From Escherichia coli (GTDB taxonomy: Bacteria > Pseudomonadota > Gammaproteobacteria > Enterobacterales > Enterobacteriaceae), in assembly GCF_022846255.1 (NCBI RefSeq), contig NZ_AP025682.1: a stretch of DNA of 64,000 bases. One strand, 5' to 3'. Position numbers: made by a program. Shown here in pieces: positions 56,301 through 62,300 of this stretch (the stretch's first letter is position 1; every line of letters begins with the position of its first letter).

Positions 56301-59300
56301 CGGCATCTGCGGATGGGGTGGCATGGCCTTAAACGACGCCGCGATGGACACACGTGTCAAGGCGGTGGCGAGCAGCGTGATGTATGACATGAGCCGTGCA
56401 ATGGGGCATGGCGTGGGCGATGGCAAAGACCGCTATACCACTGCCGATCGTCGTGCCGTATTGCAGTATTTGAACATGCAGCGCTGGAAGGATGCTGAAA
56501 ATGGCGCTTTCGCGCCAGGCGGGCATGATATTTACGTTGATGAGAAGGGCAACGTCACCGCTTCCGATCGTATTTTACCGGAAACTTTGCCAGCGAATTC
56601 TAATCCGGTATTGAAAGAGTTCTTTGATTATTACCGCATGCCGCGTGGTTTCCATGCGCGTTCGGTCAACTCAACCAGTGCCTGGAATGCAACCATGCCG
56701 CTGTCATTTATGAATATGCCGCTGCTGAGTTACGCTAATGAAGTTACTATCCCTACACTCATCGTGACCGGTGAAAAAGCCCATTCACGCTATTTTGCTG
56801 AAGATGCCTTTAAGGCAATCGGCAGCAAAGAGAAAGAGTTAGTGATTGTCCCCGAGGCAAACCATGTTGATCTGTACGACAACGTTGCGGGTAAGATCCC
56901 ATTTGCCAAATTTGAGCAATTTTTCAAGGCAAACTTAAGATAACCCGAAAGGTTTACCAGGCCACCTGTCGTAAACGGGTGGCTTTTAACTGCCTAGTGT
57001 GATGCAGAATATGCCGCATCTCCCTATATTCTCACCCAACTATTATGTCGTTATTCCCTGAATAACTTCTGACCCGATTGCGCTTGAATCTGGCTGGTTC
57101 GATATTAAGGGGGCTAATAATGTCCACTGTAAGTCTCAAACAATTATACGGAAAAACGCATGCATACTGGAGCGGCGTATTCGCCATGACGCTTTGCGTG
57201 TTTGTGCTGATCGCTTCTGAGTTTATGCCAGTCAGCCTGCTTACGCTCATTGCCCATGATTTGCACGTTACCGAAGGGCTGGCAGGGCAAGGAATTGCTG
57301 TCTCTGGTGCGCTGGCGGTGCTTACCAGTCTGACTATCTCCCGTATTACCGGAGACCTGAATCGAAAATATCTTCTGCTGGGGCTGACGGCCTTAATGGC
57401 CATATCGGGAATAGTTATCACCATAGCACCTGACTATCCGGTTTATATGCTGGGGAGGGCCCTGATTGGTATCGTCATTGGAGGGTTCTGGTCAATGTCG
57501 GCTGCAACCGCCATTCGGCTCGTGCCGAAGCAGCATGTCCCCCGCGCACTGGCAATTTTTAACGGCGGAAACGCACTGGCCACCGTTGTGGCAGCGCCAC
57601 TTGGTAGCTATCTGGGGACAACCATCGGCTGGCGTGGGGCCTTTTTATGTCTGGTCCCCCTTGCGATAGCTGCGTTCATCTGGCAATGGGTCAGTCTGCC
57701 TCCGATGGAAAGTGATAAAACACAAAAGCCACAGAGATCTGTGCTTCGCCTGTTCAGCGTTGCCATCGTACCAACGGGACTGCTGGCCTGCGGACTCTTC
57801 TTTATGGGACAGTTTGCTTTATTTACCTACGTGCGCCCCTTTCTGGAGAGCGTCACCAGAGTGGGACCTTCTGATCTTTCTCTGATTTTGCTCGCAATAG
57901 GTGTAGCAGGTTTTGTCGGCACAATGATCGTCTCAACATTCCTGAACACCATATTTTATAAGACCTTAATAATGATCCCGTTGCTTATGGCAGCGATTAC
58001 CGGTGCGTTACTGCTGGTCGGACACCATATCTGGGCTGTTGCCGTTTTACTCAGCCTGTGGGGGCTACTTGCGACAGCTGCGCCAACGGGGTGGTGGACA
58101 TGGATAGCACGCGCGTTACCCGAAGATGCAGAGACGGGGGGAGGCCTCATGGTTGCAGTGATTCAGTTATCTATTGCACTTGGTTCAACGGCTGGAGGTC
58201 TGGTATTCGACAGTCTGGGATGGAGAAGTGCTTTTGGTTTAAGTGGTTTGTTACTTCTGGGAGCGGTAGCGATGACATGTGCCACATCCCGTCAAAACAG
58301 GAAGGCGCAGTAGCGCAATCCTTTTATTTCTGGCGTACGCTCTTTAAGGCATCCGGCTGAGAGGCTAATGATCACTCCTCGCTCACAACGGACCTTCAGC
58401 TCAGCTGCTCCGGCCGCTTCATGCCATGAATGTACGCAGCCAGCCAGAATATTAAGGTGCGGATTTCAGTTCACTTGCCAGCCCAGTGATACAGGACAGT
58501 AATGACCAACAATTTTGTATTGACACAACAAGTTGCGGCCCCGGTTCGTGGAGGAGATTAAACGACTGTAGCCGGGGCCACTGAAATGAAGAATTCAGAG
58601 AGACTGAATGATATGTCGCACCTTCAGTGAATAGTGTAAAAACCGGGATATTCTCATCCGGGATTACCCACTCATACTCAATGCGTAACTTTAGTGCGGC
58701 CCCACAGGTAAGAGCCGGACACATTTGTTGAGTACGCTGCAGAATTGGTAACCGGGGCCCTGCAGTCTTTAACTCTGTGTCTTGTGTTGCTCATTTGCCA
58801 CAAAATCCTGGTACGCCTGCTCAATCATTTCATTCAGCAGTTTTTTTGAGGGGACACCACGACTTTGGGTAATACTTTCAGGCTGTTTGTGGATTTTTCC
58901 GGACAGTTTCAGCGGACGGAACCATCAGCATGTTCATCACGCCTTTTTTGTTGCTCCCGGGCACTTTTTCAGCTCATCCACAATATAGCTGCTCTTCTCG
59001 CATTTTTGCCGATTTTAAAAATGCGAACAAAACATCCGTACATGATGTACAGATTAAACTGCCAGGGACTGGTGTCAGAAAGCCTCCGGTTAGCCTGCTC
59101 TTTCCGGAATGTGCCGGTTATGAAAAACCGGAAATTCAGTCTCTGTTGTAAGATGTACCCTCTGATACTACGTTTTCGTTTTCTCTGTGTATTTAACTCA
59201 CTGTATTTATTGTCTTTTTAAGCCTGACTGATATTCTCCGGTCATAGTGTGCCGGATAGACATCCCGTAACCTTCTCATTTTTATATAAAAATACCTGCA

Positions 59301-62300
59301 CTGTCTTCAGCGCATCTGTCTCCTTTAAGTAAAAAATGTTTTCACGTATTGCTGTAAATTCATTTTAAATCAGTATGTTATCCTGATATTGCTGTCTCCT
59401 GGTTTGATGCGTAATCGTTCTGCCTTTCTGGATGATTCTGGATGATTCTGGATGATTCTGGTGCTTCCGGGTGCATTCTCCTCTGCACATGCAACAGTTC
59501 GTCATCGCCACGTGCCCAAAAAGCATATAAAAACGAATCGAATCTGATCGTTTTTTCAATCGTTTTTCACAGGAATTTCGTAGGGTGTTCTCCGCTATAG
59601 CCTCCATATTTGCTGTCTTTTTCTTCATAAATCGTATGCAATATAACCAGTCTGTCAAGACATCTTCCCTGCTGTTGAGGTGACGATCTCATTTCTGGTC
59701 TTTTCCGGGAGAGAGACGGTCAGATGAGCGAGCCGGATTTACTGCCAGAGGTACTCCCCGCGGCAGAAAATAGTGCTCCTGTTTCCGCAATCCGGGATCG
59801 GTAACGTCCCATGGTTAATGCCACTTGCAGCGTCAGGCACTGCAGGTTTACGTCGTGATCTGATTTCTTCTGCACTTATCCCGATCACGGAAGCTCCCCC
59901 TGCGCAGACATCGGTTCCTGCCGACATCTCACAATACCGCCAGGCTGTCATGCAGTAACACCCGCAATGCGGTCTGCGGTTTTAAGCGCACTCTCCTGTT
60001 TTCAGTGCACCGATAAGCGTTATAGAAAGTCTGGGGTGAGTTACTGAATGTCTGTTAAGTGGTGCCGTGGGTGGAGACTGCTTACTTTTCCACAGCAACT
60101 GCAGTCATTCAGGATGCTCAGGAGAGAATATGTCAACGCCACGAGCCGGGCCATTTTCATGCCAGCCAGTATATTTTCTACACTGATGCAGTCTGATTTT
60201 CACCATTCCATCCTCACTGATTGTCGTGTTGTTTTGGGTCATCACCACAGCTTTCCGTTTCTCTTTTAATCGGTAACGCTCTCCTTTGATATTCAGCGTG
60301 GTTGAGTGATGCAGCAGTCAATCCAGGAGCGCTGTTGTCCGGCAACCACCATATCAACTTCTTCCCGGCGTGCCGGCGCTGGTATCCAGGCCGGGTTTCG
60401 AAGCGAAGCGTTCCTGACGGACTCATTGACATCCGGGCCGGATGTAGTCATGCAGCATGGAACGTCCGCCCGTATACACTGACGGCGTCCGGCCGTGTAC
60501 AGAGATCGGTAAAATTCGTTACTACAACTGTTCCTGAATATCTGACGAAGAAACATTCAGCAATAACATCCGGCCGTGTACATCTCTTTTGCGGTGCAGG
60601 GAGCACTGTCGCCATGTACTTATTGTCACCAGGGTGAGGCATGTACCGCAGCATGCCAGCTCAGCAATGACAGGATGCCCTTAAGACATCCGTCATGGCT
60701 CAGTATGATGACGACGAACACGCTCTGCAGGTGAGCATGCAGGACCGGGGGTATCATCATTTCCGTATTTTGCCGCAGCTTCCGGAAACAACCGGCATCA
60801 GTTACGGTTACCGTCAACCGTTGTGCGGTATGCCAGGAGCACGTACTGATCCATCAGATCCGTCAGTGCTGCGTTCTGCTTCTGACGGTCGATGATCCAT
60901 TCCCCCAGCTCTTTTTCTGATTTCCGTTTCAGGTTCTCCGTCCAGTCGTCAAGGCTGTTTCCGGTCATTAAATCAAGCCAGCAAAGCCAGACCAGTTTGA
61001 GGCGCAACTCCGTGCCACCAAACTGACGGAAGAGGCTGATCAGTTTATTTGCCAGAGAACGCTGCCTCAGACGTTCACATTCAGACAGCAGAATCCCTTC
61101 CAGCATCGGATGATGAACCAGCAGATGTTCGCTGGTGCATAAGTTCACCACCAGATCATCATCCAGGGGCGGCGTGGCCCGTTTGTCAGAGCCATAAATC
61201 AGCCGGTGCAGACTCCGGGGTACGATGGCAATCTTCGGTTTTTCACCATTGAATGACACCCACCCGGGCGTCAGATTATGGAAGTAGTGGATATTCGGAT
61301 GACACACGCCCCAGGATACGGCGTGCCGGGTGAAGCCGGTCAGCCATTTCTGGTAGCTTTCGTGGAGCAGCTCGTAACGGGTCTGATACTGTGGTTTCAT
61401 TTTCATATTCCTCACGGGGGATAACAGGCAGCAGAGTGCCGCCGGCAGGCCGGAGATTGCGTCTGCTGTGGGCGAAGGGCCAGTGGTTAAAAATTACGGA
61501 CGGGACTGTGCAATACGCGCCTGCAGCCAGGCTTCCACTTCACTTTTCAGCCAGCGGGAGCTGCGGCCGAGTTTGATGGGAGCCGGAAAGGCCCCATCCT
61601 TGATGAGCTTGTAAAACCACTTATCGGTCAGGCCGGTCAGCTGAGTGATAAACGTCATATCGACCATCTGGTCATCCATCAGCGAAACTGGGGTGGTCAT
61701 AAAAATCTTCTCCGGATGTTGTTAATCTCAGCCGGCGTTGATGATGAAAACAACGCACCACCTTCACCGGCATAACAACCGGGGAGAAACGTAAAAAATC
61801 AGTAGGGGAATATTCCTGCCAGGAGAGAAACTGTTGTGTACAGGCAATACAGGTTGTCTGTTTTGTCAGTGAAGCCGGTATAAACGGAAGATGATTTTGT
61901 GTTGCCGGAATATGGGATGGCGTTTTGCCGTGACAGGATCAGTATTTTCAGTGATGATTATTACTGTGCAGGGGAGTACCGGAGAGAAACCACGCCCTGT
62001 ACCTGCCAGAGCGGTGGTTTGTATTGACTGAACGGAAGATAAAGCGAGGTAAACACTGTTGTGGTGAGCGGAGAAGACTGAGATTATTCTCTGTAATTAC
62101 AAACAACAGTGATCTTATCCGGTTTTTTTACCGTTACGGGTTTCAGGGGATCAATTTTATAGACCGGGGTAATGACCACGCCGGAATTTATGGAGAAAAG
62201 CGGGATCCAGCAATAAACGTCAGGATATTTCTGTGTCTCCGGAATACCTTTTGTGCCAGAGGCCATCAGATCTTTAACGCTCACGAAAAATGACTTCCTA

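What the first reader, a model, noticed from the sequence alone, without database searches (positions are those of the whole stretch)
58314..60797. Gene-poor stretch of about 2.5 kb inside the island with only short, frame-hopping ORFs
Between the MFS gene and the alpA-adjacent ORF there is no ORF longer than about 120 codons, and adjacent minus-strand ORFs switch frame (60214-60817). This looks like decayed coding sequence, but the block could instead hold non-coding RNAs or regulatory DNA.
Basis: seen in the sequence. Interest (0 to 1): 0.3.

Follow-up and report, generated by a model that had tools for sequence, protein, structure and literature searches.

The report
Decayed island DNA: pseudogene plus IS21 fossil
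The 2.5-kb gap is real but ordinary: it holds a deletion-killed hypothetical gene, the fossil of an IS21-type insertion sequence and long non-coding spacers that travel with this family of E. coli genomic islands, and it has no intact gene and no recognisable RNA.

Summary
Window 58314-60797 has no ORF longer than 118 aa, which is what random sequence of this composition gives.

All features lie on the minus strand.
1. 58769-59003: remnant of a ~391-aa, E. coli-only hypothetical gene. A 933-bp internal deletion (junction 58978|58979) plus frameshifts killed it. 328 of 5426 complete genomes carry this junction.
2. 59004-60130: 1.1 kb of non-coding DNA, present full length in 2092 of 5426 E. coli genomes. 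It has a conserved sigma-70-like promoter (59658-59631). I read it as the orphaned promoter and leader of the dead gene.
3. 60131-60476: IS21-like fossil with the right inverted repeat, IstB residues 214-265 and IstA residues ~85-133. Every island lineage examined shares its 1.4-kb internal deletion, so it is ancient.
4. 58314-58768 and 60477-60797: unannotated 3' flanks of the neighbouring genes.

K-12 CP4-57 proteins, including YfjI, do not match. Rfam finds nothing. Covariation is negligible. The 1.1-kb core is less polymorphic than the IS fossil overall, but the effect depends on haplotype blocks and is not robust.

RefSeq already annotates both pseudogene fragments in near-identical genomes. 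Interest is low.

The parts
58314..58378 (.). 65-bp spacer after the MFS transporter stop codon. It belongs to the MFS cargo block, not to the shared island module.
   Evidence: Islands that lack the MFS gene (for example Nissle 1917, L003, L007, L009) match only from window 58379 onward.
58379..58768 (-). Unannotated 3' flank of the ~391-aa gene. It travels with that gene.
   Evidence: Found in 1361 of 5426 E. coli genomes, always next to the gene's 3' end, and no other feature is annotated under it. The 90-aa ORF at 58452-58724 has no Pfam or NCBIfam match. A weak GTPase-like tblastn hit (E 0.1-0.4) is not significant.
58769..59003 (-). Pseudogene: remnant of a ~383-391-aa E. coli-only hypothetical gene (RefSeq WP_000263646 family). 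The start region and the last ~74 codons survive. A 933-bp internal deletion has its junction at 58978|58979, and there are further frameshifts.
   Evidence: tblastn of the intact protein from L003/L004 matches residues 318-342 and 343-391 in two frames. All intact homologues break at the same point. The junction was read base by base. PGAP marks it 'frameshifted; incomplete' in the 99.5%-identical strain 82.0311. The junction is present in 328 of 5426 genomes.
59004..60130 (-). Conserved non-coding 1.1 kb between the IS21 fossil and the dead gene. I infer that it is the gene's promoter and long leader or regulatory region.
   Evidence: Full length in 2092 of 5426 genomes at 84-99% identity, with nothing annotated. 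Indels of 1, 2, 6, 8, 19, 20 and 43 nt. No ORF is conserved in a way that suggests coding. Absent from phages, nearly absent from plasmids, and absent from the GTDB species representatives.
59100..59740 (-). Best-conserved, AT-rich core of the non-coding block (GC 40-44%).
   Evidence: Identity between clades is 0.91-1.00, against 0.71-0.98 in the IS fossil. Segregating sites are 8.6% against 24.5% in the IS fossil (Fisher p = 1e-9), but the difference is not significant inside the non-window clade (p = 0.21). Nucleotide diversity is 0.022, against 0.026 at the gene's four-fold degenerate sites.
59631..59658 (-). Sigma-70-like promoter, TTGACA-16 nt-TACGAT, pointing towards the dead gene.
   Evidence: Matches 10 of 12 consensus positions. 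The motif is kept in 68 of 69 full-length copies. The scan as a whole found no more sites than shuffled sequence did, so this is a prediction only.
59426..59461 (.). 10-bp tandem repeat (CCAGAATCAT on the minus strand), three copies here.
   Evidence: Copy number is 1 in 61 copies, 0 in 6, 2 in L001 and 3 only in this window. This is slippage in unconstrained DNA.
59034..59054 (-). Hairpin followed by a T-rich tail, about 30 nt upstream of the dead gene's start.
   Evidence: Terminator-like site. It is one of the only two predicted pairs, out of 177, with a compensatory change (U-G to A-U, split by clade).
60131..60476 (-). Fossil of an IS21-family insertion sequence: right terminal inverted repeat, the 3' end of istB and a fragment of istA joined by a ~1.4-kb internal deletion. 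The left end is lost.
   Evidence: blastn against IS21: window 60476-60334 aligns to IS21 nt 354-501 and window 60337-60150 to nt 1914-2101. The end sequence TGTCAACGCCACGAG at 60131-60145 resembles the IS21 right inverted repeat TGTCAACGCCACGATG. The 501|1914 junction is the same in L004, L007, L008 and L009.
60183..60338 (-). IstB (AAA+ helper ATPase) C-terminal fragment, residues 214-265.
   Evidence: tblastn gives 73% identity to IS21 IstB, E = 1e-18. Pfam PF01695 positions 209-238 of 238 match at 26.5 bits, above the cut-off of 24.1. PGAP annotates 'AAA family ATPase, partial' here.
60370..60476 (-). IstA (DDE transposase) fragment, residues ~85-121, frameshifted.
   Evidence: tblastn gives 48-50% identity in two frames, E = 8e-4 and 4e-3. 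DNA identity to IS21 istA is 82%. PGAP annotates 'IS21 family transposase, frameshifted' at the same place in L003 and L007.
60477..60797 (-). Non-coding 3' flank of the 205-aa gene. It contains the remaining frame-hopping short ORFs.
   Evidence: Homologous at 73-96% identity, with ~100-bp indels, to the same flank in other island types (L004, L010, L011, L012, L009). No Pfam or NCBIfam match. A search of 5.8 billion proteins with the longest version of the ORF finds only sporadic E. coli ORF calls.
60695..60895 (+). 66-aa ORF that RefSeq annotates as a hypothetical protein (WP_011076196). It is antisense to the 3' end of the 205-aa gene and is probably not a gene.
   Evidence: The L011 version differs by several non-conservative replacements outside the overlap. 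No family match.

Best explanation
The stretch is a patchwork of dead and non-coding DNA inside a P4/CP4-type E. coli genomic island, and as far as can be told it does nothing now. The history I reconstruct follows. Steps 1-3 are shown by sequence comparison; step 4 is inferred.

1. In the ancestor of this island family, an IS21-like element inserted between the alpA/205-aa gene pair and a downstream ~391-aa gene. The element then lost 1.4 kb internally, and also its left end, leaving a fossil.
2. Lineages differ in further damage at the fossil's upstream edge. IS100 or IS66 is inserted in some. This window instead has an extra deletion, so IS21 nt 354 now abuts the 3' flank of the 205-aa gene.
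3. In the sub-lineage that includes this window, a 933-bp deletion removed all but the start region and the last ~74 codons of the 391-aa gene, and frameshifts followed.
4. The 1.1 kb between the fossil and the dead gene was already non-coding. It most likely carries the gene's sigma-70 promoter (59658-59631) and a leader of about 640 nt. That leader now has nothing to express, and a 10-bp unit within it has expanded by slippage.
For: No ORF exceeds what random sequence gives. The pseudogene is mapped by tblastn and by comparison with intact copies, and RefSeq annotates it as frameshifted and incomplete. The IS21 fossil is supported by DNA and protein matches and by the terminal repeat. Its internal junction is the same in four other island lineages, and nested IS100 or IS66 insertions occur in relatives. 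The 1.1-kb block has indels that are not multiples of three, no conserved ORF and no protein-level similarity to anything tested. The promoter motif is kept in 68 of 69 copies. Rfam finds no match. The intact 391-aa gene is under only weak constraint (pN/pS 0.64), which fits its loss being tolerated. 328 genomes share the deletion junction.
Against: The 1.1-kb block is kept full length in 2088 of 2094 matching records. Its core has about three-fold fewer segregating sites than the adjacent IS fossil. The sense strand folds somewhat better than shuffled sequence (z = -2.5 from only 20 shuffles, against -0.4 for the antisense strand). All three points would also fit a function of its own. The promoter and leader assignment is a consensus match, not a measurement. 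No expression data were available.
Confidence: 0.8

Rival explanations
1. The conserved 1.1-kb block, especially the core at 59100-59740, encodes a functional RNA of its own. This would be a long leader with regulatory structure, or an sRNA made from the promoter at 59658-59631 and ended at one of the hairpins (59314-59297 or 59054-59034). It would be kept by selection even where the downstream gene is dead.
For: Present full length in 39% of complete E. coli genomes. The promoter motif is kept in 68 of 69 copies. The core has 8.6% segregating sites against 24.5% in the IS fossil (p = 1e-9). The fold z-score is -2.5 on the sense strand and -0.4 on the antisense strand. One hairpin has a compensatory change. 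The block survives in 328 genomes with the deleted gene.
Against: The covariation term is -2.7 of -107.9 kcal/mol, and only 2 of 177 pairs show compensatory changes. Core diversity (0.022) is about the same as at the neighbouring gene's four-fold degenerate sites (0.026). Within the non-window clade the core and the IS fossil do not differ significantly (p = 0.21), so the pooled contrast largely reflects recombination blocks. Indels and a variable 10-bp repeat sit inside the core. There is no Rfam match even at E <= 1. The promoter scan found fewer sites than shuffled sequence did.
Confidence: 0.15
2. Some of the short ORFs are real small genes, for example the 97-aa ORF at 59365-59658 (a shorter version is annotated in one RefSeq genome), the 90-aa ORF at 58452-58724, or the 66-aa ORF at 60695-60895.
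For: PGAP annotates a 79-aa version of the first ORF in strain BCE-1 and the 66-aa ORF in several genomes. A few tiny ORFs of 12-41 aa stay open in 42-45 of 45 unique copies.
Against: The 97-aa ORF is broken by 1-, 2- and 20-nt indels among homologues, and its substitutions are not concentrated at third codon positions. No ORF matches Pfam or NCBIfam. Tiny ORFs staying open is expected at 96-98% identity. The longest ORF is no longer than in random sequence.
Confidence: 0.04
3. The whole stretch is the decayed remains of CP4-type island genes such as YfjI.
For: The position just downstream of an alpA-type gene resembles alpA-yfjI in K-12 CP4-57.
Against: tblastn of YfjI and 11 other CP4-57 proteins gives no hit in the stretch. 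blastn against CP4-57 gives nothing. Six-frame pieces of the 1.1-kb block do not match the equivalent gaps of other island types.
Confidence: 0.01

Closest known systems
IS21 (IS21 family: istA transposase plus istB helper ATPase; 2131 bp)
   Same: The right terminal repeat, the last 52 codons of istB (73% amino-acid identity) and codons ~85-133 of istA (about 82% DNA identity) are recognisable and in the right order and orientation.
   Different: Only 346 of ~2131 bp remain. IS21 nt 502-1913 and nt 1-353 are missing, the reading frames are broken, and no left end or target duplication can be found. The fossil is ~82-85% identical to IS21, so it derives from a related element, not from IS21 itself.
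RefSeq hypothetical protein family WP_000263646 / WP_072646255 / WP_000514100 (383-391 aa, E. coli genomic islands)
   Same: The window keeps the start region and the last ~74 codons (80-88% identity), together with the gene's upstream and downstream flanks.
   Different: 311 codons are deleted and the rest is frameshifted. The family has no Pfam, PHROG or PDB relative. An AlphaFold model was of low confidence (mean pLDDT 43.7), so the function of the lost gene is unknown. The C-terminal ~40 residues look like a ribbon-helix-helix motif by eye only.
alpA-proximal region of K-12 cryptic prophage CP4-57 (alpA-yfjI-yfjJ)
   Same: An AlpA-type HTH gene lies close upstream, within the same general kind of P4-integrase-type island that carries a YeeP/YfjP-type GTPase and an Ag43-type adhesin.
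   Different: There is no sequence similarity to yfjI, or to any other CP4-57 gene tested, within the stretch.

Membership tests
IS21-family insertion sequence | Terminal inverted repeat beginning 5'-TGT | tested here: met
   The right end TGTCAACGCCACGAG at 60131-60145 compares with the IS21 right repeat TGTCAACGCCACGATG. The left end was not found.
IS21-family insertion sequence | istB encoding an IstB-type AAA+ helper ATPase | tested here: met
   Present as a fragment only. Pfam PF01695 positions 209-238 of 238 match at 26.5 bits (cut-off 24.1). tblastn to IS21 IstB residues 214-265 gives 73% identity, E = 1e-18.
IS21-family insertion sequence | istA encoding the DDE transposase, upstream of istB | tested here: met
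   Present as a fragment only. Residues ~85-121 match in two frames (E = 8e-4 and 4e-3), and the DNA aligns to IS21 nt 354-501.
IS21-family insertion sequence | Complete element with both ends and intact genes, so able to move | tested here: not met
   IS21 nt 1-353 and 502-1913 are absent. It is a fossil, not an active element.
WP_000263646-type 391-aa island protein | Uninterrupted ORF of ~383-391 codons | tested here: not met
   A 933-bp deletion plus frameshifts. The matches to residues 318-342 and 343-391 lie in different frames.
CP4-57 YfjI (DUF3987) or other CP4-57 proteins | Detectable protein similarity in any frame | tested here: not met
   tblastn at E <= 1 gives no relevant hit inside 58314-60797.
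Any described RNA family (Rfam 15) | Covariance-model match | tested here: not met
   At E <= 1 the only hit inside the stretch is a sub-threshold CRISPR-DR13 match within the istB fossil, 27.9 bits against a cut-off of 37. The gathering-threshold scan of the whole window finds C0719, IS102/IsrC and JUMPstart, all elsewhere.
Structured non-coding RNA in general | Base pairs supported by compensatory changes | tested here: inconclusive
   2 of 177 predicted pairs show compensatory changes, and the covariation term is -2.7 kcal/mol. The 43 unique sequences are too similar to decide.

The most novel reading that the evidence does not exclude
The AT-rich core at 59100-59740 of the 1.1-kb block is present in about 39% of complete E. 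coli genomes, always downstream of the same IS21 fossil. It could be a functional cis-regulatory leader or a long non-coding RNA, transcribed from the conserved promoter at 59658-59631. It could control the downstream island operon (391-aa gene, then the YeeP-type GTPase and Ag43 in some islands), or act by itself where that gene is deleted.
Probability: 0.12. Interest if true: 0.45.

Novelty: already known. Interest (0 to 1): 0.15.

Why it matters
It matters little beyond annotation. The result explains a 2.5-kb hole in the gene map as ordinary island decay: an IS fossil, a deletion pseudogene and long spacers. RefSeq already flags the two pseudogene fragments in near-identical genomes.

Two by-products may be useful. 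First, the shared IS21 fossil and the 933-bp deletion junction are clean markers for tracing this island family; the junction is in 328 of 5426 complete genomes. Second, a 1.1-kb unannotated block with a conserved promoter sits in about 39% of complete E. coli genomes and has never been annotated. It is a cheap target to check in existing RNA-seq data.

Tried and rejected
- **CP4-57 proteins.** tblastn of K-12 CP4-57 proteins, including YfjI, against the stretch gave nothing.
- **Short ORFs.** Pfam on six-frame translations, and Pfam and NCBIfam on ten short ORFs, returned only the IstB fragment.
- **Neighbouring proteins.** PHROGs on the 391-aa, 205-aa and 263-aa proteins and on two positional analogues gave nothing. 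PDB sequence search of the 391-aa protein also gave nothing.
- **391-aa protein structure.** The AlphaFold model had mean pLDDT 43.7, too poor for a fold search, so none was run.
- **Rfam.** Permissive and gathering-threshold scans gave no hit in the stretch.
- **Other collections.** Phage blastn gave no match. Plasmids gave three records, one of them a doubtful 1-Mb 'Klebsiella plasmid'. A 20-mer from the core had no match in the species-representative genomes or in viral contigs.
- **GTPase remnant.** The idea that 58379-58768 is a remnant of the YeeP-type GTPase rests on tblastn E-values of 0.1-0.4 with no DNA similarity, so I rejected it.
- **Iterons.** The 1.1-kb block shows no origin-like iteron pattern.
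- **Analogous gaps.** Six-frame pieces of the block do not match the equivalent gaps of other island types.
- **Flank ORF.** A protein-database search with the longest ORF of the 60477-60797 flank found only sporadic E. coli ORF calls.
- **Literature.** One search for island-encoded sRNAs found nothing at this location. The UTI89 sRNA paper (PMC4546395) reports PapR and C271; nothing in the passages retrieved places either at this locus.
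Full report
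**Observation**

Window 58314-60797 contains no complete ORF longer than 118 aa, and the minus-strand ORFs between 60214 and 60817 sit in different frames. Simulated sequence of the same first-order composition gives a longest ORF of 122.8 +/- 30.9 aa, so the stretch looks like non-coding DNA. It stands out locally: the median longest ORF in 2484-bp windows across the 64 kb is 314 aa. GC content falls to 40-44% around 59000-59700. ARAGORN finds no tRNA in the window. Rfam finds nothing credible in the stretch, even at E <= 1. At gathering thresholds the whole window holds only C0719, IS102/IsrC and a JUMPstart element, all elsewhere.

**What the DNA is**

Megablast against 5426 complete E. coli genomes shows that the stretch belongs to a widespread chromosomal island module. 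In the 99.5%-identical strain 82.0311, RefSeq annotates two pseudogene fragments inside it. One is a frameshifted, N-terminally truncated 'hypothetical protein'. The other is a partial 'AAA family ATPase' (the same). Relatives with a longer version of the locus (L003, L004, L007, L009) carry an intact minus-strand gene of 383-391 codons where the window has only a stub.

**Block 1: the dead gene (58769-59003, minus strand)**

- tblastn of the intact protein matches only residues 318-342 and 343-391, and the two matches lie in different frames.
- Every intact homologue aligns up to window 58978 and resumes at 58989.
- Reading the junction shows '...CAGCTCATC|CACAATA...'. This is a clean 933-bp (311-codon) deletion with no appreciable microhomology. 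It leaves the start region and the last ~74 codons.
- An 80-bp probe across the junction is matched in full by 328 of 5426 genomes, while 2069 genomes match at least part of the probe (the sampled partial rows match only the gene-side half).
- The protein family is restricted to E. coli and has no Pfam, PHROG or PDB relative.
- An AlphaFold model built on a shallow alignment was poor, with mean pLDDT 43.7. Only the C-terminal two helices reached about 75. That is compatible with, but does not show, the ribbon-helix-helix motif suggested by the sequence.
- Other island types carry positional analogues of 305 and 290 aa, with weak similarity in the C-terminal half.
- Among 17 unique intact copies the gene has pN/pS of about 0.64, so it is real but only weakly constrained.

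**Block 2: the IS21-family fossil (60131-60476, minus strand)**

- Pfam finds the last 30 positions of IstB_IS21 in one frame.
- tblastn gives IS21 IstB residues 214-265 at 73% identity, and IstA residues ~85-121 in two frames.
- At the DNA level, window 60476-60334 aligns to IS21 nt 354-501 and window 60337-60150 to nt 1914-2101.
- The element's right terminal repeat is readable at 60131-60145.
- The same 501|1914 internal junction occurs in L004, L007, L008 and L009, so the insertion and its internal deletion predate the split of these island lineages.
- Relatives keep more of istA (from nt 218) and have IS100 or IS66 nested in it. The window instead has an additional deletion that brings nt 354 against the 3' flank of the 205-aa gene.

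This block accounts for the frame-hopping ORFs between 60214 and 60476.

**Block 3: the 1.1-kb spacer (59004-60130)**

- It is present full length in 2092 genomes at 84-99% identity, with no annotation.
- It is absent from phages, almost absent from plasmids, and absent from the GTDB species representatives and from viral contigs. Seventy-one metagenome contigs, many of them labelled human gut, carry it.
- Homologues differ by indels of 1, 2, 6, 8, 19, 20 and 43 nt. Substitutions in the longest ORF are not concentrated at third codon positions. No ORF of meaningful size is conserved.
- Six-frame pieces match nothing in the equivalent gaps of other island types or in CP4-57.

The block has therefore been non-coding since before the lineages diverged.

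A sigma-70-like promoter (TTGACA-16 nt-TACGAT, 59658-59631, minus strand) points at the dead gene and is kept in 68 of 69 copies. A hairpin with a T-rich tail lies just before the gene start. I infer that this block is the gene's promoter plus a leader of about 640 nt.

**Does the spacer have a function of its own?**

For:
- The core at 59100-59740 shows 8.6% segregating sites, against 24.5% in the adjacent IS fossil (p = 1e-9).
- The sense strand folds better than shuffled sequence (z = -2.5, 20 shuffles), while the antisense strand does not (z = -0.4).

Against:
- Core diversity (0.022) is close to that of the neighbouring gene's four-fold degenerate sites (0.026).
- Inside the non-window clade, the core and the IS fossil do not differ significantly (p = 0.21). 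In the window-like clade the contrast comes from two haplotype blocks within the IS fossil.
- RNAalifold on 43 unique sequences finds compensatory changes in 2 of 177 pairs, with a covariation term of -2.7 kcal/mol.
- A 10-bp unit inside the core has three copies only in this window, two in its nearest relative and one in nearly all others, which is typical slippage.

I rate an independent function as possible but unsupported.

**Block 4: the flanks**

- Window 58379-58768 always accompanies the 3' end of the 391-aa gene (1361 genomes) and has no annotated feature. A GTPase-like tblastn hit with E of 0.1-0.4 is not significant.
- Window 58314-58378 belongs to the MFS cargo.
- Window 60477-60797 is the 3' flank of the 205-aa gene. 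It is shared at 73-96% identity, with ~100-bp indels, with other island types.
- The short ORFs in that flank have no family. A search of 5.8 billion proteins with the longest version returns only scattered E. coli ORF calls.
- The RefSeq-annotated 66-aa ORF at 60695-60895, antisense to the 205-aa gene's end, is probably spurious.

'Decayed coding sequence' is right for about 23% of the stretch. The YfjI-like ancestry is not supported. The ncRNA or regulatory alternative remains open but weak.

**Verdict**

This is ordinary island decay, already partly flagged by RefSeq annotation. It is of low interest, apart from the unexplained but cheaply testable 1.1-kb block.

Noticed in passing
window 63206-63351: A tandem-repeat array in the AT-rich DNA beyond the 263-aa gene. 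A 13-bp unit is repeated ~11.5 times, and TCTACC is repeated 7.3 times at 63290-63333. It produces the 'RGRGRG' and 'EVEVEV' ORF translations.
   Followed up: no
window 53296-53532 (-): An Rfam IS102/IsrC sRNA match (70.7 bits) between the YeeP-type GTPase and the Ag43 gene, as in K-12 CP4-44. C0719 RNA is at 10356-10577 and a JUMPstart element at 30396-30434.
   Followed up: no
window 251-2734 and 43501-45984: The only other 2484-bp windows in the 64 kb whose longest ORF is 118 aa or less. These are possible further gene-poor or decayed stretches.
   Followed up: no
L003, L007 (IS100) and L008 (IS66), equivalent to window ~60476: The istA part of the IS21 fossil is a repeated target for later insertions. 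IS100 sits at IS21 nt 346-353 with an 8-bp overlap that looks like a target duplication, and IS66 sits at nt ~301-309. The window's own breakpoint (nt 354) lies right next to the IS100 site.
   Followed up: partly
L007:3843-5015, L009:3840-5015 and relatives (the intact form of window 58769-59003): The 391-aa island gene is an E. coli-only orphan with pN/pS of about 0.64 and equal diversity at all three codon positions. Its central region (about residues 66-193) modelled at very low confidence and without secondary structure. Its annotated ATG is followed by a stop in some lineages, so the real start is probably the GTG at codon 10, behind a GAGGTG motif.
   Followed up: partly
L011:2025-2942, L012:988-1860: Other island types have unrelated-looking 305-aa and 290-aa genes in the same position, upstream of the GTPase. 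Each has a C-terminal motif like that of the 391-aa protein, and each lies 1.2 kb (L011) and 2.6 kb (L012) downstream of the 205-aa gene across DNA with no intact annotated gene.
   Followed up: partly
plasmid record NZ_CP079635.1 (L006): A 1.04-Mb 'Klebsiella pneumoniae plasmid' with only five listed features carries the E. coli island module at 86% identity. It may be a mislabelled or misassembled record.
   Followed up: no
window 60174-60203 (-): A sub-threshold Rfam CRISPR-DR13 match (27.9 bits against a cut-off of 37) at the end of the istB fossil, spanning its stop codon. It is a single copy with no array, so I take it as chance.
   Followed up: yes
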